Shown: piece after piece, positions 3,056-42,013 of the stretch
Layout of the letters: every line of letters begins with the position of its first letter
How positions within the stretch are numbered: the first letter of the stretch is position 1
NCBI GenBank assembly: GCA_002793915.1
Contig: PFEF01000006.1
Location: 24,697-88,696 of the forward strand
DNA length: 64,000 nt
Source of the DNA: Candidatus Ryanbacteria bacterium CG10_big_fil_rev_8_21_14_0_10_43_42
GTDB lineage: Bacteria > Patescibacteriota > Minisyncoccia > Ryanbacterales > 2-02-FULL-48-12
Direction of reading: 5' to 3'
The notes under the pieces: model-generated
The model's input: the letters and a program-made list of their open reading frames with translations, nothing else
Database searches by the model: none
Told to the model about the DNA's origin: nothing
Translations under genes and position numbers: made by a program

Positions 3056-4852
3056 ATGGAAATCAGGAATATAGCGATAATAGCCCACGTAGACCATGGG
3101 AAAACAACACTAACTGATGCCATTATGCGGCAGACGGGTATGTTTGAGGAGGGTATGAGTATGGATACGAATGCGCTTGAGCAGGAGCGTGGTATTACTA
3201 TTTATGCCAAAAATACGGCAACGATATATAAAGATACAAAAATAAATATTGTAGATACGCCGGGACACAGTGATTTTGGATCAGAGGTGGAACGAGTGCT
3301 TCGCTCTATTGATTCAGTGCTTCTGGTAGTGGATGCACAGGAAGGTCCTATGCCGCAGACACGATTTGTTCTCAAAAAATCTCTTGAACTTGGTTTTAAG
3401 CCTATTGTTATTCTTAATAAAATTGATAAGCCGGCGGCGGATCCCATGCGTGCCGAAGAACAGGTTCTCGAATTGTTTTTTGAACTGGGTGCTTCTGATG
3501 AGCAGGCGGATTTTACGGTAGTTTATGCAATTGGAAAAGATGGCGTTGCCATGAAAAACAGAGATGATGAGAAAAAAGATCTCTCGCCTTTGCTGGATAC
3601 TATTTTAGAACAGGTGCCAACAGCGCCTCATACGGTGGACGCGCCTCTTAGGGCACAACCATTCAACTTGGCATATGATAATTTTTTGGGACGCCTCGCT
3701 ATTGCGCGCGTATATGACGGTATTCTTCGCGTGGGCGCACAGGTATATATTACAACGCCCGATGGGGATATACGAACCGGAAAAGTAACGAAGCTGTTTA
3801 CGTTTAAAGGAGTGGCGCGAAAAGAAGTTGATTTCGTGGAGGCGGGAGACATTTGCATGATAGCCGGACTTCCCGATATTTTTATCGGAGAGACTATCAG
3901 TGCAGACAAGGAAGTTGAGTTATTACCCGCAATCAAAGTGGACGAACCAACGATTACGCTTACGTTTTTGGTAAACAACTCTCCGTTTGGAGGGCGTGAT
4001 GGTACGTTACTTACGTCGCGGCAGATACGGGAGCGTCTCGAGAAAGAACTTGAGGTGAATGTGGGGCTTAAGATTGATTTTACACAGCCGGATCAGTTTA
4101 AGGTTTATGGCCGCGGAGAATTACATGTTGCCGTTCTATTGGAAACGATGCGAAGGGAGGGGTATGAGATTCAGGTTTCACAGCCACACGTTATTATCAA
4201 GGAAGAGGATGGTAAGAAATTAGAACCCTTTGAGGAAGTGACAATTGATGTGCCAAGTGAATTTCAGGGGGCGGTTATAGAAAAATTAGGCAAAAGAAAG
4301 GCAATTATGACGGATATGAAGACGGAATCGGACGCGACGGTACGACTTACGTTTGAAGGGCCTACCCGTGGTTTTCTAGGTTATCGAGGGCAATTTATGG
4401 TGGATACGAAAGGGGAAGGTATTCTCTCAAGTAGAGTTATAGGATTTAAGCCTTATGTAGGGCATATAGAAAAGCGTGTTACGGGATCCATGATATCAAT
4501 GGCTACCGGAAAGGCGTTGGGATTTTCACTTGCAAATTTGCAGGAACGCGGTGTTTTGTATATTGGTCCGGCGACGGAAGTGTATGAGGGTATGGTTATT
4601 GGAAATACGGCAAAAGGAGATGAAATGTCGGTAAATCCCATAAAGGGAAAACAGCTTACCAATATGCGCGCTTCCGGATCGGATGATACTATCCAGCTGG
4701 CACCGCCGCATATTATTACGATTGAATCCGGACTTGAGCTGATTGCCGAGGATGAGTATCTGGAGATAACGCCGCATAACGTACGTATACGGAAGCAGTA
4801 CTTAACAGAAAATGAACGCTCAAAATCAAAAAGAGGAAAGGGTGGCGCATAG
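3056..4852 (+). CDS. typA: translational GTPase TypA/BipA
   Basis: [33 protein letters not shown]-domain motifs. 598 aa, typical TypA length and domain order. Confidence 0.95.
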
Positions 4853-4971: not shown

Positions 4972-5172
4972 ATGCAACAGGGAACAGTTGCCCGTATCAT
5001 GGACAAAGGCTACGGCTTTATCCAGCGAGAGGGCGAAGAAAAAGACCTTTTCTTTCATGCAACTGAAGTTAAGGACGGCGCATTCAATGATCTTCGTGAA
5101 GGAGATGCTGTGCAGTTCGAAGTTGAGGAAGATTCAAAGGGAGCACGCGCCGTACAGGTGAGTCGTGCATAG
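4972..5172 (+). CDS. cold-shock protein (CspA family)
   Basis: GTVARIMDKGYGFIQ...DLFFH core (RNP1/RNP2 motifs). ORF-track start 4945; the internal ATG at 4972 gives a canonical ~66-aa Csp. Long 5' UTR and a strong terminator follow. Confidence 0.9.
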   Translation: MQQGTVARIMDKGYGFIQREGEEKDLFFHATEVKDGAFNDLREGDAVQFEVEEDSKGARAVQVSRA

Positions 5173-8521: not shown

Positions 8522-8550
8522 AAGGAATATTATTGACCTAATATATTATT
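8522..8550 (+). promoter_or_regulatory. sigma70-like promoter TTGACC-17-TATAAT
   Basis: Upstream of the 47-aa hydrophobic peptide ORF. Confidence 0.55.
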
Positions 8551-8605
8551 AATGTTATAATATGAGCATACAAAAAAGGTCTTTTATAGGGTAATAGGAC
8601 AATTT

Positions 8606-8749
8606 ATGAAAACATTATTAGGTATTGTTATACTTGTTATAGCCGTGTGGATATTTGCGACAGTAAGTGAACCGGTGAGTCGTTACGGAGGAGGTGCAGT
8701 ACTCGCTTTGGTAGCGGTCTGGCTTCTTTTAAGAGGACGTAAGGGATAG
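8606..8749 (+). CDS. small hydrophobic 2-TM peptide (47 aa)
   Basis: MKTLLGIVILVIAVWIFATVSEPVSRYGGGAVLALVAVWLLLRGRKG. Driven by a perfect TTGACC-17-TATAAT promoter at 8522-8550. Not in the ORF track because it is under 60 aa. Confidence 0.35.
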   Translation: MKTLLGIVILVIAVWIFATVSEPVSRYGGGAVLALVAVWLLLRGRKG

Positions 8750-8830
8750 GGTGAGTTTGCAGGTATGAGGTATATATGTTAGAGTAAGAATGTCTACAGA
8801 GGCGCATCTTATCAGCTTATAATCAAAATC

Positions 8831-8962
8831 ATGGATGAAATGAATCCAATGGATCCTCAAACAGAAGGTGAGGCTCCTGCAACACCAACAGAAGGTGGTG
8901 ATATGCCTGCAGCAGCCGGTGATGAAGAAGCTCCTGCAACACCAACAGAAGGTCAGGAATAA
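8831..8962 (+). CDS. small acidic Pro/Thr-repeat peptide (43 aa), possibly leaderless
   Basis: MDEMNPMDPQTEGEAPATPTEGGDMPAAAGDEEAPATPTEGQE. TATAAT at 8818-8823 lies 7 nt before the ATG (leaderless geometry). Strong terminator immediately downstream. Contains a 24-nt direct repeat. Confidence 0.3.
   Translation: MDEMNPMDPQTEGEAPATPTEGGDMPAAAGDEEAPATPTEGQE
8873..8954 (+). repeat. 24-nt direct repeat (gctcctgcaacaccaacagaaggt x2) inside the small acidic peptide ORF
   Basis: Copies at 8873-8896 and 8931-8954, encoding APATPTEG twice. Confidence 0.7.
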
Positions 8963-8975
8963 GACTTTCTTCGTA

Positions 8976-9009
8976 TAAAAAAGAGCTGATATATATCAGC
9001 TCTTTTTTA
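8976..9009. terminator. bidirectional rho-independent terminator between the small peptide ORF (+) and the SET gene (-)
   Basis: aaaaaagagctgatatatatcagctcttttttat: 11-bp stem flanked by an A-run and a T-run. Confidence 0.8.
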
Positions 9010-14848: not shown

Positions 14849-15313
14849 ATGTCATTTGGAAGAATACGCCGTACTTGCGGTATGATTATTGTTTCGCCGG
14901 AATTTTTCCCGAAAGGGGGCGATTGTTGGGAAGAAAATGAGGGGATGTTTCTTTCCCTGGATACCGTTGCGAGAGTGTGTCGCTGTTTATGGGTGGAAGA
15001 GGAACGTACGAAAATTCCCGATGCTTTTAATGGGGATCTTACTGTTCTTAAAAAAGAATTTTATACGCAATTCACGGAACGTCATTACAGAATTATCCTT
15101 CTTGGCGGTGATGAGTATGATTTTGTTTCCATGGTTCAAAAAATGAATATTATATCCGTACCGGATAATTTTAGAACACTACTTGCAAGGAATGATATAG
15201 AATATAATATAGTCCAGCGTGTTTGTATGCATCCCGGGGATATGGTAATTCGTCTGACGGAATCACCTGAGATATCGGGATGGTACATTGCAAAAAAAGA
15301 CAGGTATGGTTAG
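14849..15313 (+). CDS. hypothetical protein (154 aa)
   Basis: SD aaggaggatattATG; terminator downstream at 15350-15374. No family recognised. Confidence 0.5.
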   Translation: MSFGRIRRTCGMIIVSPEFFPKGGDCWEENEGMFLSLDTVARVCRCLWVEEERTKIPDAFNGDLTVLKKEFYTQFTERHYRIILLGGDEYDFVSMVQKMNIISVPDNFRTLLARNDIEYNIVQRVCMHPGDMVIRLTESPEISGWYIAKKDRYG

Positions 15314-39278: not shown

Positions 39279-40559
39279 TTAGTATCCACGTTCATCTACA
39301 AACTTACCGTTCGTATCCCGGAGAGTAATGGTTTCATGTGTATTGCGAAACATTTCAGCGTCTTTTTGAAGCCAGATAAGCCATCTATTCTGGTAGAAGT
39401 TTTCCTGATTTTTATAATTTCGCACACAACCGGCGTAACTGAAATTTTCTATAAGATAATCGGAGCATTCGCTTTCAATGCCGAAAAAGTCGCCTGAATC
39501 GGGAGTTCTGCATCCTCGAATATCATCAATAACCTCAAGGCAACGGTCACTGAAATAGGTAAGATCGGCGGTGTCGATGGTGTTAGGGCACCGACTTCCT
39601 ATGGAAGGCGTAAATTTGGAGGTTTCTTTAAAATAACCCGTACAAAGGTTTTCTCGAAAATTTATGTTGCGATCTTGCTTGCCCACCGTGATAATTACCG
39701 TGCCTCGAGGAGTAAGAATGAGATCACTTAATTGAATGGATGTACCTCCGGGCAAATTTTGAACTTGTGGTATAGTGATACGTCCGCCTCGTGCATTGGT
39801 AATGGTCCAGCCGGTTATATTAACGGATTGTTCTTTACTCTTATTGGAAATAGTGACTTGTTCCGATACGGGATCGGTACGGTTTCCGCGGAATTGAGAG
39901 ATAATTATTATTTCATGAAACGTTGACGTTGCAGTTTCCGAAGGAGGTAGTGTGCGCGTTGTTGTATTGTCAACGATTATAACGCCATCGGTAATATCCT
40001 TATTTACTTCTCGCAAGGTGTTAGCATCAAATCGGCCATGTACGCGAAGATCATTCGCTTCTTGATATTTGCGTACAGCCTCTTCGGTGAGAGAGAAATA
40101 ATTTCCGTTGGAAACGGGATATGTGAAGTATCCCATGGTCCGAAGAAATTCTTGCAAACGTACAACGTCAGGATCATTGGTAAGACCGGGAGAAAAGGTG
40201 CGTTTAAATTCGGTAAAGGGAGGAGTGGGTGTGTTTTCGGGCGGAAGAGTGATTGGTATTTCGCCGGATAATTGACCGTTTACGGCATTACGGGTAAGGG
40301 GACCGAAATAGCCGGCAGGGGGTGTTATGTTGTGCGCAAGTTGAAATGCGGCAACGGCTTGTTGTGTGAGACTAAAATAATTACCGGTAGATTCCGGATA
40401 GGTAAAAAATCCTTTTGCGCGTAAGAATTCTTGCAGGCGCACTACTTCAGGATCATTACGAATGCCAACAAACAAGTCCCGTGTAAAATCTTCCGCGGAA
40501 GCAAAAGAGACAAAAGCGAAAGACAAAAGAAAAAAGATAGCATACTTTTTCATATTCAT
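39279..40559 (-). CDS. secreted protein: signal peptide + two peptidoglycan-binding (PGBD) repeats + lamin-tail-domain (LTD) + Cys-rich C-terminal domain
   Basis: Signal peptide MNMKKYAIFFLLSFAFVSFASA. Two ~75-aa repeats (DPEVVRLQEFLRAKGFFTYP...GPLTRNAV and DPDVVRLQEFLRTMGYFTYP...). LTD-like IIIISQFRGNRTDPVSEQVTISNKSKEQSVNITGWTITNARGG. About 10 Cys in the last 100 aa. Confidence 0.8.
   Translation of the reverse strand: MNMKKYAIFFLLSFAFVSFASAEDFTRDLFVGIRNDPEVVRLQEFLRAKGFFTYPESTGNYFSLTQQAVAAFQLAHNITPPAGYFGPLTRNAVNGQLSGEIPITLPPENTPTPPFTEFKRTFSPGLTNDPDVVRLQEFLRTMGYFTYPVSNGNYFSLTEEAVRKYQEANDLRVHGRFDANTLREVNKDITDGVIIVDNTTTRTLPPSETATSTFHEIIIISQFRGNRTDPVSEQVTISNKSKEQSVNITGWTITNARGGRITIPQVQNLPGGTSIQLSDLILTPRGTVIITVGKQDRNINFRENLCTGYFKETSKFTPSIGSRCPNTIDTADLTYFSDRCLEVIDDIRGCRTPDSGDFFGIESECSDYLIENFSYAGCVRNYKNQENFYQNRWLIWLQKDAEMFRNTHETITLRDTNGKFVDERGY
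39985..40500 (-). repeat. tandem duplication of the ~75-codon peptidoglycan-binding repeat inside the LTD protein gene
   Basis: Two stretches with clear nucleotide and protein similarity (DPEVVRLQEFLRAKGFFTYP / DPDVVRLQEFLRTMGYFTYP). Confidence 0.6.
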
Positions 40560-40635
40560 ATTGTATATCTTTATTGTGAAAGTAAAAAGGGGATATTAAT
40601 ACTTTAGAAATATAATATTTTTGAAAACTACTATT

Positions 40636-40775
40636 TAAAAAAAGAGCATGTAATGGTAATGCTCTCTTAAATGGGATTCTTTAATTGTGTACTTGAACGA
40701 AGAAAGTGTGTGGGGGAGAGGTATTACCCAAGGAGGAGATGAAACTCTTCCTTATAACCACTCTCTTCGTTCAAG
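40636..40775 (-). ncRNA. candidate small RNA (promoter + 18-bp-stem hairpin + intrinsic terminator) on the minus strand
   Basis: Minus strand has TTGACA (40811-40806) - 18 nt - TAAAAT (40787-40782). Predicted TSS ~40775 is the first base of a 17/18-bp inverted repeat (40758-40775 pairs with 40690-40707; ~50-nt loop). Hairpin agagcat-N9-atgctct at 40643-40665 plus U-run (40636-40642) follows. No coding gene on that strand. Confidence 0.4.
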
Positions 40776-40781
40776 TCTTCG

Positions 40782-40811
40782 CATTTTACATTATGATAGT
40801 ATGATTGTCAA
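40782..40811 (-). promoter_or_regulatory. sigma70-like promoter of the candidate sRNA
   Basis: Minus-strand TTGACA - 18 nt - TAAAAT. Confidence 0.4.
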
Positions 40812-40873
40812 ACTTTTACAGCGAATGTTTTTAGGGCTTTCTTATTTTCCGTTACTTCTGTATTCTTATCCCT

Positions 40874-42013
40874 ATGCTTGATTTTTCTATACAAAAACAA
40901 TCAAAGAAATCCCATGCACGGGTTGGCACGATAAAAACAACCCATGGAATCGTTGAAACACCAGCTTTTATACCGGTAGCTACTCAAGGTGTGGTAAAGA
41001 CACTTACAAGTGAGGAGGTTGTTGCGGTCGGATCTCAGATGCTTATTTGTAATACATATCACTTACATATTCGTCCCGGAGAAAAGATAGTAAAAGCGAA
41101 TGGAGGATTGCATGGCATGATGCAATGGAATAACCCCCTTATGACGGATTCGGGAGGATTTCAGGTTTTTAGTTTGGGGTTTGGTAAAGAGCAAAGTATG
41201 GGAAAAATTCTTAAAAAGAGGCAAAAACCATCTGTTAGTGCGGATATGAAATCGAAGTTTTTGCGCATAACGGATAAAGGTGTGCATTTTCATTCGTATG
41301 TGGATGGAAAAGAGATTTTTCTCGATCCAAAAACTTCCATAAAAATTCAACAGGCACTGGGTGCCGATATTATGTTTGCATTTGATGAATGTCCGCCACC
41401 TCTTGCGGATGAACGATATATGATTCGGTCACTCGAAAAAACACATAGGTGGGCCGAGGAAAGTTTGAGTGCGAAAACTACAAAGAAGCAATCTTTGTAC
41501 GGTATTGTGCAGGGAGGAAAATATAAGAACTTACGTATGCAGTCTGCACGATATATAGGAAATCTCCCCTTTGATGGATTCGGTATTGGCGGGGAATTCG
41601 GTTTCAGTAAACGGGCAATGACATCCATGCTTCGATGTGTTTTTGAAGAATTACCGGAAGAAAAACCCCGTCATCTCTTGGGCGTGGGACATCCGGAAGA
41701 CATTTTGCCGATTATTAAAGCAGGTGTTGATACGTTTGATTGTATTGTGCCAACACACTATGCGCGCCGCGGCATTGCGTTTACATCTGAAGGAAGGCTT
41801 GATCTTCGAAAAGCTTTATTTTTTACAGACAAAAAACCGCTCGATGAAACGTGCGGGTGTATGGTATGTGGTGTATATTCTCGGGCATATATTACGCATA
41901 TGTTGCGTGCTCACGAAATAACACCGCTTAGACTGCTTACAATACACAATTTGTTTTTTTTCCATGCAAAAGTTGCGCGTATTCGTGAAGACATAAAAGA
42001 GGGAAGAATATGA
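40874..42013 (+). CDS. tgt: queuine tRNA-ribosyltransferase
   Basis: Conserved Tgt core including DSGGFQ and the Zn site CGCMVC...H. Confidence 0.95.
   Translation: MLDFSIQKQSKKSHARVGTIKTTHGIVETPAFIPVATQGVVKTLTSEEVVAVGSQMLICNTYHLHIRPGEKIVKANGGLHGMMQWNNPLMTDSGGFQVFSLGFGKEQSMGKILKKRQKPSVSADMKSKFLRITDKGVHFHSYVDGKEIFLDPKTSIKIQQALGADIMFAFDECPPPLADERYMIRSLEKTHRWAEESLSAKTTKKQSLYGIVQGGKYKNLRMQSARYIGNLPFDGFGIGGEFGFSKRAMTSMLRCVFEELPEEKPRHLLGVGHPEDILPIIKAGVDTFDCIVPTHYARRGIAFTSEGRLDLRKALFFTDKKPLDETCGCMVCGVYSRAYITHMLRAHEITPLRLLTIHNLFFFHAKVARIREDIKEGRI

What the first reader, a model, noticed from the sequence alone, without database searches (positions are those of the whole stretch)
40636..40811. Candidate ~140-nt small RNA on the minus strand between the LTD-protein gene and tgt
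On the minus strand, a TTGACA-18-TAAAAT promoter places the predicted transcription start exactly at the base of a 17/18-bp inverted repeat (arms 40758-40775 and 40690-40707, ~50-nt G/A- and C/U-rich loop). A stem-loop + U-run terminator follows at 40636-40665, immediately before the start codon of the next minus-strand gene. No protein-coding gene on that strand needs this terminator. The 64-aa plus-strand ORF called here (40687-40881) has no SD and sits inside this structure. The element could also act antisense to the tgt 5' UTR.
Basis: seen in the sequence. Interest (0 to 1): 0.6.

Follow-up and report, generated by a model that had tools for sequence, protein, structure and literature searches.

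The report
Candidate small RNA beside tgt
The gap between two diverging genes of an uncultured groundwater bacterium (Candidatus Ryanbacteria) holds what looks like a self-contained gene for a ~140-base non-coding RNA, kept in three related genomes but unproven without RNA data.

Summary
On the minus strand there is a TTGACA-17-TAAAAT promoter (11 of 12), a 17/18-bp inverted repeat starting at the predicted start site, and a hairpin plus U7 terminator. Together they predict a ~140-nt transcript, 40776 to about 40637.

Neither flanking gene needs this terminator, because both are transcribed away from the gap.

No Rfam family matches, no ORF is conserved, and the element is single-copy.

The only three relatives found with the same LTD/tgt neighbourhood carry a unit of the same design there. 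Each has a same-strand promoter-like site, stable hairpins, C/U-rich tracts and a U-run terminator on that strand only. Their sequences are too diverged for BLAST, while the flanking genes are 75-83% identical.

In the two relatives that keep the long stem, a hand alignment shows compensatory and G-C/G-U changes and no broken pair. The third relative has two local hairpins instead.

More distant relatives have 20-40-nt gaps and lack the unit.

Best reading: a narrow-lineage, fast-evolving trans-acting small RNA whose C/U-rich tracts (one resembles the 16S anti-SD tail) pair with purine-rich mRNA sites. The transcription unit is well supported in silico. The mechanism is inferred. The antisense-to-tgt idea is not supported.

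The parts
40806..40811 (-). -35 hexamer TTGACA of the small-RNA promoter
   Evidence: 11/12 match, spacer 17; one of five sites at 11/12 or better in 64 kb, against 1.9 expected.
40783..40788 (-). -10 hexamer TAAAAT. The predicted start site, 7 nt downstream, is 40776.
   Evidence: L164 has the same geometry: TATACT, 6 nt, then the first stem base.
40637..40776 (-). Predicted non-coding transcript, about 140 nt
   Evidence: Boundaries come from the promoter and terminator. Fold z = -6.6. No Rfam match. No conserved ORF in any frame.
40759..40776 (-). 5' arm of the closing stem (ACUUGAACGAAGAGAGUG)
   Evidence: 17 Watson-Crick pairs plus 1 G.U on this strand.
40691..40708 (-). 3' arm of the closing stem (CACUUUCUUCGUUCAAGU)
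40730..40753 (-). Inner hairpin. Its 3' half is C/U tract 1, AUCUCCUCCUU (40730-40740), which resembles the 16S rRNA 3' tail.
   Evidence: Fold. Its complement AAGGAGGAGAT matches SD-like sites in the window, 5 hits against 0.73 expected.
40712..40721 (-). C/U tract 2, CCUCUCCCCC, mostly unpaired on the 3' side of the internal loop
   Evidence: Related tracts occur in L171 (UCCCCCUCCCCCUCUCCU), L165 (UUUCCUCCCUCCCC) and L164 (UUCCCCCCU). Two such tracts within 140 nt occur in 1.4% of minus-strand windows.
40637..40668 (-). Intrinsic terminator: 10-bp stem, 9-nt loop, U7
   Evidence: I10; -9.7 kcal/mol. The U-run is on this strand only. The tool scan missed it because of the loop size.
40837..40873 (+). 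Context: conserved 37 nt upstream of the tgt ATG, the likely tgt core promoter. TATTCT lies at 40861-40866, 7 nt before the ATG.
   Evidence: Blastn alignments of the window with L171 and L165 both begin at 40837. The TAnnnT box is read.
40560..40565 (-). Context: TACAAT box followed by ATGAAT and then ATG at 40553, the likely own (leaderless-type) promoter of the LTD/PG-binding gene
   Evidence: Sequence reading. L171 has the same TACAAT, 6 nt, ATG geometry. This is an inference.
40687..40881 (+). 64-aa ORF, judged spurious
   Evidence: It has no SD. One gene caller called it and another did not. Only its last 14 residues find similarity in relatives.

Best explanation
The 314-nt gap between the divergently transcribed LTD/PG-binding gene and tgt holds a third, independent transcription unit on the minus strand.

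A near-consensus sigma-70 promoter starts transcription at about 40776, directly at the foot of an 18-20-bp stem. A hairpin plus U7 terminator ends it at about 40637. The product is a ~140-nt non-coding RNA.

The closing stem encloses an internal loop with a small hairpin and two C/U-rich tracts: AUCUCCUCCUU and CCUCUCCCCC. A paired 5' end and a terminator hairpin are typical of a stable small RNA.

Most likely it acts in trans. The C/U-rich tracts would pair with purine-rich, Shine-Dalgarno-like sequences of a subset of mRNAs and lower their translation or stability, as C-rich small RNAs of the RoxS/RsaE or CcsR type do.

What is shown in silico:
- the promoter, stem and terminator;
- the lack of a conserved ORF;
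- retention of the same design at the same locus in three diverged relatives.

What is inferred:
- that it is transcribed;
- that it works in trans;
- that the C/U tracts are the seed.

My estimate is about 0.75 for 'a real independent non-coding transcript' and about 0.35 for the anti-SD pairing mechanism.
For: **Anatomy.**
- Promoter, 11 of 12. Such sites are rare, and the other four sit in front of genes or a small-ORF unit.
- Inverted repeat, 17/18.
- Fold z = -6.6.
- Terminator with the U-run on the minus strand only.

**Context.**
- Both neighbouring genes start at the gap and point away from it, so neither needs a terminator here.
- Intrinsic terminators sit at many gene ends in this window, so the signal is in use.

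**Comparison with relatives.** The organism is a Candidatus Ryanbacteria MAG. Identical contigs give no variation. Three relatives are informative: L164 (tgt 80% identical), L165 (75%) and L171 (LTD protein 71%).
- Each has, at the same place and strand, a promoter-like site, stable hairpins (z = -4.0, -6.2 and -9.1), C/U-rich tracts and a hairpin plus U-run.
- Blastn finds no similarity across the RNA region, while the flanks are 75-83% identical.
- In a hand alignment of 10 closing-stem columns (W, L165, L164), 3 columns show double compensatory changes, 3 switch between G-C and G-U, and none is broken.
- G.U pairs number 4 on the RNA strand against 1 on the other strand.

**Rarity.** The architecture was found nowhere else in 1.1 Mb.

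**Non-coding.** Reading frames differ in all four loci.

**Seed idea.** The complement of tract 1 occurs at SD-like sites, including the SD of the gene at 14849.
Against: - There is no expression data of any kind.
- Only four genomes carry the unit, and they are related, so the covariation counts are few and rest on a hand alignment. MAFFT did not align the arms in register.
- L171 does not keep the long closing stem.
- The L164 terminator is weak on the RNA strand, at -4.4 kcal/mol with a C.A mismatch.
- The tool-listed promoter-like sites in L165 and L171 put the start about 14-20 nt upstream of the first stem; the 7-8/12 sites that would put it close to the stem were read by hand.
- Overall C content (24%) equals the minus-strand average (25%). 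A single C/U tract occurs in 14% of minus-strand 140-nt windows.
- Duplex prediction against the 57 translation-start regions of the window was no better than with shuffled loops: 22 of 100 shuffles were as good.
- Most genes here lack an SD, so the pool of SD targets is small.
- GGAGG is common inside plus-strand mRNAs (119 copies), so pairing specificity is unclear.
- The opposite strand folds slightly better because it can form more G.U pairs.
Confidence: 0.55

Rival explanations
1. It is a cis-acting 5' leader (riboswitch or attenuator) of the LTD/PG-binding gene. The promoter at 40811 would drive the LTD mRNA, the big hairpin would be a sensor, and the terminator the expression platform.
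For: The unit is on the same strand as the LTD gene and 75-85 nt upstream of it. L171 has the same order. A terminator in front of a gene is the classic attenuator layout.
Against: - No Rfam riboswitch or leader matches in any of the four loci.
- The hairpin sequence is not conserved, which an aptamer would be.
- A possible antiterminator pairing in the window (CUUUCUU with AAGAGAG) has no counterpart in L164 or L165 (sequence reading).
- A TACAAT box sits 6 nt before an ATG of the LTD gene in both the window and L171. This suggests that gene has its own leaderless-type promoter downstream of the terminator.
- More distant relatives keep the LTD gene with only a 20-40-nt upstream gap and no such leader.
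Confidence: 0.1
2. It regulates tgt in cis. Either its promoter competes with the nearby diverging tgt promoter, or the RNA is antisense to a long tgt leader.
For: The unit sits upstream of tgt in all four genomes. The small-RNA -35 box (40806-40811) lies about 25 nt from the conserved tgt upstream block, 40837-40873.
Against: - Only 37 nt upstream of tgt are conserved, with a TAnnnT box 7 nt before the ATG. This implies a tgt mRNA with no leader to overlap.
- The plus-strand promoter-like site at 40778-40805 scores only 9 of 12, a chance-level match.
- With only four related genomes, linkage to tgt cannot be told apart from inherited gene order.
Confidence: 0.08
3. It is a protein-binding RNA, such as a 6S-like RNA polymerase decoy, a sponge for an RNA-binding protein, or an RNase III substrate, rather than a base-pairing regulator.
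For: It has a long, nearly perfect 18-20-bp helix closing an asymmetric internal loop. It has a strong promoter. No convincing mRNA target was found in the window.
Against: - No match to the 6S family or any other Rfam family, even at E up to 10.
- The hairpin is 86 nt, while 6S RNAs are 150-200 nt with long irregular stems on both sides of the bubble (my knowledge of the family).
- The closing stem is absent in L171.
- The distribution is very narrow, which does not fit a housekeeping RNA.
Confidence: 0.08
4. It is a type I toxin-antitoxin pair. The plus strand would encode a 21-aa hydrophobic peptide (MKLFLITTLFVQVFAFYIMIV, 40739-40804), and the minus-strand RNA would be its antisense antitoxin, as in Ibs/Sib.
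For: The peptide is very hydrophobic. AAGGAGG precedes its ATG. The predicted RNA would cover the start region of that ORF.
Against: - The SD ends only 2 nt before the ATG.
- No comparable ORF exists in L164 (7 aa), L165 (a 29-aa, non-hydrophobic TTG ORF) or L171 (none).
- The hydrophobicity follows from the T-rich sequence of the stem arm.
- No plus-strand promoter passed the scan between 40560 and 40730.
Confidence: 0.04
5. It has no RNA function. The promoter-like and terminator-like signals and the inverted repeat would be chance features, a DNA-level protein-binding palindrome, or a remnant of a mobile element or a decayed gene.
For: There is no expression evidence. The family has only four members. 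The AT-rich gap is prone to promoter-like matches.
Against: - The combination is rare and recurs with different sequence in relatives.
- An operator would keep its sequence, and 18-bp arms 50 bp apart are not operator-like.
- The element is single-copy, with no target-site duplication, so it is not a MITE.
- The NUDIX or DUF5654 genes that occupy this position in more distant relatives leave no trace here.
Confidence: 0.1

Closest known systems
RoxS/RsaE (C-rich small RNA of Bacillales and Staphylococcus)
   Same: It is an independent ~115-140-nt unit with its own promoter and an intrinsic terminator. It has stable hairpins and exposed C-rich motifs that pair with Shine-Dalgarno regions (the pairing role is known for RoxS/RsaE and inferred here).
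   Different: - No sequence or covariance-model similarity.
- A different phylum (Patescibacteria/CPR).
- A long closing stem around the C-rich part, instead of C-rich hairpin loops.
- Very narrow distribution.
- Targets and regulators are unknown.
CcsR / alpha-r14 'cuckoo' RNAs of Alphaproteobacteria (CCUCCUCCC motif)
   Same: It carries a CUCCUCC-type anti-SD-like motif within a hairpin (AUCUCCUCCUU here).
   Different: - Those RNAs occur in tandem copies, are tied to a DUF1127 gene, and are processed from its 3' UTR (my knowledge of the family).
- Here there is a single copy with its own promoter between tgt and a PG-binding gene.
- No Rfam match.
Sib antisense RNAs of the Ibs/Sib type I toxin-antitoxin loci (E. 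coli)
   Same: It is a ~140-nt RNA lying opposite a very short hydrophobic ORF.
   Different: The ORF is not conserved in any relative, and its SD spacing is unworkable. There are no repeated loci.
6S RNA
   Same: It is a helix closing a large internal loop, driven by a strong housekeeping-type promoter.
   Different: It is about half the size, has no second long stem, does not keep its structure in L171, does not match the Rfam model, and is not broadly distributed.

Membership tests
Independent trans-acting bacterial small RNA (generic class) | Own promoter, separate from neighbouring genes | tested here: met
   TTGACA-17-TAAAAT, 11 of 12. Such sites are rare and sit in front of genes or a small-ORF unit in this genome. 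Same-strand promoter-like sites occur in L164 and L171 (9/12) and in L165 (9/12, or a closer 8/12 site read by hand).
Independent trans-acting bacterial small RNA (generic class) | Intrinsic terminator that ends the transcript before the next gene | tested here: met
   A 10-bp hairpin plus U7 on the minus strand only. All three relatives have one too, though the L164 terminator is weak.
Independent trans-acting bacterial small RNA (generic class) | No conserved reading frame | tested here: met
   Translating all frames of the four loci shows no shared ORF. The 64-aa ORF is not conserved apart from its promoter-overlapping end.
Independent trans-acting bacterial small RNA (generic class) | Conserved structure with compensatory changes in relatives | tested here: inconclusive
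   In 10 aligned columns, 3 show compensatory changes and 3 show G-C/G-U changes, with none broken. However, there are only three sequences, the alignment was made by hand, and L171 folds differently.
Independent trans-acting bacterial small RNA (generic class) | A discrete transcript is made | not testable with these tools
   No transcriptome data are available.
Independent trans-acting bacterial small RNA (generic class) | Pairs with target mRNAs through a seed | tested here: inconclusive
   Duplex energies against 57 start regions were no better than with shuffled loops. The complement of tract 1 matches SD-like sites, but SD-like sequences are enriched in any case.
RoxS/RsaE and other Rfam small-RNA families | Match to the family covariance model | tested here: not met
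   The window has no match at gathering score. Within 40000-41500, searched at E up to 10, only chance-level miRNA-type hairpin hits appear. Nothing matches in L164, L165 or L171 at E up to 1.
6S RNA | 150-200 nt, two long irregular stems around a central bubble, broad conservation, model match | tested here: not met
   The hairpin is 86 nt and the inner stem about 8 bp. The structure is not kept in L171. There is no RF00013 hit. The unit is absent from more distant Ryanbacteria-like loci.
Riboswitch or attenuator leader | Conserved aptamer sequence, alternative antiterminator, and co-transcription with the downstream gene | tested here: not met
   No Rfam match. No sequence conservation. No conserved antiterminator (reading). 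The downstream gene appears to have its own -10 box at its ATG. Co-transcription itself cannot be tested here.
Type I toxin-antitoxin (Ibs/Sib-like) | Conserved short hydrophobic toxin ORF opposite the RNA | tested here: not met
   The 21-aa ORF is found only in the window. It is absent from L164, L165 and L171.
MITE / repeated palindromic element | Multiple copies, terminal inverted repeats with a target-site duplication, same sequence wherever present | tested here: not met
   It is single-copy in 64 kb and absent from 80 related loci. There is no duplication at the arm ends. Relatives carry different arm sequences at the same site.

The most novel reading that the evidence does not exclude
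In an organism where most mRNAs appear to lack a Shine-Dalgarno sequence or a leader altogether, this RNA could mimic the 16S rRNA 3' tail. Its AUCUCCUCCUU compares with the canonical GAUCACCUCCUU. It would compete with ribosomes for the minority of SD-led mRNAs. That would make it a lineage-specific global switch between SD-led and leaderless translation, and one of the first regulatory small RNAs defined in the Candidate Phyla Radiation.
Probability: 0.1. Interest if true: 0.75.

Novelty: new member of a known kind. Interest (0 to 1): 0.4.

Why it matters
Regulatory RNAs of Candidate Phyla Radiation (Patescibacteria) bacteria are essentially undescribed. Full-text searches of the held library found no paper on small RNAs in this group, and Rfam has nothing for this locus.

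A well-delimited candidate, with a consensus promoter, a defined 5' stem, a terminator and three diverged counterparts, is a concrete target. It can be tested by metatranscriptome mapping and used for comparative target prediction.

It also shows how fast such RNAs turn over. The unit is confined to one small clade and has lost all BLAST-detectable sequence similarity while keeping its architecture.

If the C/U tracts do act on SD sequences, this would bear on translation control in genomes dominated by SD-less or leaderless genes.

It is not a new kind of system. The design is that of a classical promoter-to-terminator small RNA.

Tried and rejected
- **Known RNA families.** I ran Rfam scans of the window at gathering score, of 40000-41500 at E up to 10, and of eight related loci. 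Only chance-level miRNA-type hairpin hits appeared. ARAGORN found no tRNA or tmRNA in the window.
- **Sequence homologues.** Blastn of the gap against 80 tgt loci and against the window itself found none. Scans of genome and metagenome collections with tgt gave relatives at 64% identity or less, with short or unrelated upstream regions. L015 and L084 have long hairpins upstream of tgt. I did not count them, because they lack the promoter-plus-terminator design.
- **More distant Ryanbacteria-like loci.** In loci found through the LTD protein, NUDIX, DUF5654 or truB abuts the LTD gene with a 20-40-nt gap, and the unit is absent.
- **Decayed NUDIX or DUF5654 gene.** No tblastn trace was found in the gap.
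- **Type I toxin-antitoxin idea.** The peptide is not conserved.
- **MITE idea.** The element is single-copy, and relatives have different arm sequences.
- **Antiterminator idea.** The possible pairing is not conserved.
- **Target prediction.** RNAduplex against 57 start regions performed no better than shuffles. A search for the complement of tract 2 found no real site besides the element itself.
- **Structural alignment and covariance model.** MAFFT alignments of the RNAs never put the arms in register. I therefore built no covariance model, and the pair counts rest on a hand alignment.
- **Second unit of this kind.** The region 8533-9007 turned out to encode small proteins.

Full report
**What is in the sequence**

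The window comes from a Candidatus Ryanbacteria (Parcubacteria/CPR) MAG. Sources name its tgt and LTD proteins that way.

The finding lies in a 314-nt gap, 40560-40873. On one side is a minus-strand gene for a PG_binding_1/LTD protein (39279-40559). On the other is plus-strand tgt (40874-42013). Both genes start at the gap and point away from it.

On the minus strand the gap contains three elements:
- **Promoter.** TTGACA-17-TAAAAT at 40811..40783, matching 11 of 12 positions.
- **Inverted repeat.** Arms at 40759-40776 and 40691-40708, 17/18 complementary, 50 nt apart.
- **Terminator.** A 10-bp hairpin at 40640-40668 followed by seven U.

The next start codon is 75-85 nt beyond the terminator, not immediately after it. 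Everything else is as described.

The seventh base after the -10 box is 40776, the first base of the stem. The predicted RNA therefore runs from 40776 to about 40637, roughly 140 nt, with a fully paired 5' end.

**Is it more than chance?**

- The minus-strand RNA folds at -47.8 kcal/mol, z = -6.6.
- Promoter matches of 11/12 or better number five in the window, against 1.9 in shuffles. The other four lie upstream of SD+ATG genes or a small-ORF unit, so the consensus is meaningful in this genome.
- Intrinsic terminators are common at gene ends here.
- I scanned 1.1 Mb (the window plus 170 fetched loci, both strands) for a stem of at least 13 bp, a 35-70-nt loop and a following terminator. Stems of 16 bp or more appeared only in this element, its identical copies and one relative.
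- Neither neighbouring gene can use a terminator placed in a divergent promoter region. That is the strongest single argument for a separate transcription unit.

**What it is not**

- It matches no Rfam family. The window is empty at gathering score, and the local search at E up to 10 gives only chance-level miRNA-like hairpin hits.
- The window has no tRNA or tmRNA.
- It is single-copy and has no target-site duplication, so it is not a MITE.
- More distant relatives have NUDIX or DUF5654 genes at this position. Those genes have left no trace in the gap.
- The 64-aa plus-strand ORF is not conserved, apart from its last 14 residues. Those overlap a conserved 37-nt block directly upstream of tgt.
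- No minus-strand frame is shared among relatives.

**Relatives**

Contigs with identical proteins are 100% identical in DNA and give no information. Scans of the genome and metagenome collections returned tgt relatives at 64% identity or less. Their upstream regions are short or unrelated.

The protein database yielded three closer genomes:
- L164, tgt 80% identical.
- L165, tgt 75% identical.
- L171, LTD protein 71% identical, with tgt interrupted by a run of N.

All three carry, at the same place and on the same strand, a unit of the same design.

*L164*
- Promoter: TTCATA-17-TATACT, then 6 nt, then the first stem base.
- A 14-bp closing stem with one bulge around a 52-nt interior.
- A weak hairpin followed by U7.

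*L165*
- A 16-bp closing stem around a 46-nt interior.
- A hairpin followed by U6.

*L171*
- Two local hairpins instead of one long stem.
- A strong terminator at -14.8 kcal/mol.
- Fold z = -9.1.

In all four loci the U-run follows the terminator hairpin only on the proposed RNA strand.

Blastn finds no similarity across the RNA region, even though the flanking coding DNA is 75-83% identical. The sequence has therefore diverged beyond what BLAST can detect, while the architecture has persisted.

**Covariation and strand**

A hand alignment covers ten closing-stem columns for the window, L165 and L164, anchored on the shared CGRAUGAGAG-like 5' arm. It shows:
- three columns with changes on both sides (A-U to U-A, and A-U to G-C twice);
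- three columns switching between G-C and G-U;
- no broken pair.

Across all stems, G.U pairs number four on the proposed RNA strand and one on the opposite strand. This agrees with the orientation of the promoters and terminators.

This is suggestive, not statistical. There are only three sequences, and MAFFT could not reproduce the register. I built no covariance model.

More distant Ryanbacteria-like genomes have only 20-40 nt upstream of the LTD gene and lack the unit. The family is therefore confined to one small clade.

**How it probably works**

All four RNAs carry C/U-rich tracts:

| Locus | Tracts |
|---|---|
| Window | AUCUCCUCCUU, CCUCUCCCCC |
| L171 | UCUCCUUUCC, UCCCCCUCCCCCUCUCCU |
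| L165 | UUUCCUCCCUCCCC |
| L164 | UUCCCCCCU, CUCUUUCCU |

The first window tract resembles the canonical 16S rRNA 3' tail, GAUCACCUCCUU (my knowledge of that sequence). Its complement occurs at SD-like sites in the window, including the SD of the gene at 14849.

By analogy with RoxS/RsaE and the CcsR RNAs, the best-supported mechanism is pairing of these tracts with purine-rich ribosome-binding regions of a subset of mRNAs.

This step is inference, and the caveats are real:
- Overall C content equals the minus-strand average.
- One such tract occurs in 14% of minus-strand 140-nt windows, and two occur in 1.4%.
- Duplex prediction against the 57 start regions of the window was no better than with shuffled loops.
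- Most genes here lack an SD.

**Rivals**

*Leader or attenuator of the LTD gene.* This is the main rival, because strand and order fit. Against it:
- No aptamer sequence or antiterminator is conserved.
- No Rfam leader matches.
- The LTD gene has a TACAAT box 6 nt before an ATG in both the window and L171, which points to its own leaderless-type promoter.
- More distant relatives keep the gene without any leader.

*Antisense or promoter-interference control of tgt.* This is weakened by the 37-nt conserved tgt upstream block, which has a TAnnnT box 7 nt before the ATG in all four genomes. That implies no 5' UTR to pair with.

*Type I toxin-antitoxin.* A 21-aa hydrophobic plus-strand ORF (40739-40804) briefly suggested an Ibs/Sib-like pair. 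It is absent from all three relatives, and its SD is only 2 nt from the ATG.

*6S-like or protein-sponge role.* This cannot be excluded, but it fits neither the size, nor L171, nor the narrow distribution.

**Verdict**

The locus is a well-supported in silico candidate for an independent, non-coding, ~140-nt RNA gene. It is new to the databases and of a familiar design, so I file it as a new member of a known kind.

It has moderate interest, because CPR small RNAs are essentially uncharted. Expression and targets remain to be shown.

Noticed in passing
window 40837-40873 (tgt) and 40551-40565 (LTD gene); also many starts listed: Most of the 55 long ORFs in the window lack an SD. Several have a TAnnnT box 6-7 nt before the ATG. 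For tgt and the LTD gene this geometry is kept in the relatives, which suggests that leaderless mRNAs are common in this organism. The LTD protein probably starts at the second ATG (40553, MKKYAIFF...).
   Followed up: partly
window 1-64000: The whole 64 kb has no tRNA gene and no Rfam family at gathering score. GC skew is positive throughout (+0.12 to +0.25), and nearly all genes are on the plus strand.
   Followed up: no
window 8533-9007 (+): An 11/12 consensus promoter (TTGACC-17-TATAAT) is followed by a 47-aa membrane-like ORF (8606-8749) and a 43-aa acidic ORF with an internal repeat, EAPATPTEG (8831-8962). A strong terminator follows at 8978-9007. This looks like a small-protein operon with no annotation.
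   Followed up: partly
window 40739-40804 (+): A 21-aa very hydrophobic ORF (MKLFLITTLFVQVFAFYIMIV) lies opposite the predicted RNA, with AAGGAGG only 2 nt before its ATG. It is not conserved in L164, L165 or L171, so it is judged a by-product of T-rich sequence.
   Followed up: yes
L172 4815-5020 (+); L172 ~5060-5085 and L173 ~4690-4715: A relative has a compact unit: TTGACA-17-TATAAT, GGAGG, a 22-aa ORF (MARDGPFSILQPSFASTTMVAG) and a terminator. Nearby, L172 and L173 share the palindrome CCTGCCTRCCRGCAGGCAGG inside a GC-rich structured stretch. No Rfam family matches it.
   Followed up: no
L015 2770-2860 (-) and L084 2865-2960: Two more distant Patescibacteria loci have ~90-nt long hairpins directly upstream of tgt, and the L015 hairpin has a C-rich interior. 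They have no separate terminator and no recognisable homology. Whether they are analogues of the element is open.
   Followed up: no
L180 3218-3389 (+): A long hairpin lies between the LTD gene and the DUF3467 gene of a relative. It gave a spurious plant-miRNA Rfam hit (E = 0.0003, far below the gathering score). It is probably a bidirectional terminator.
   Followed up: no
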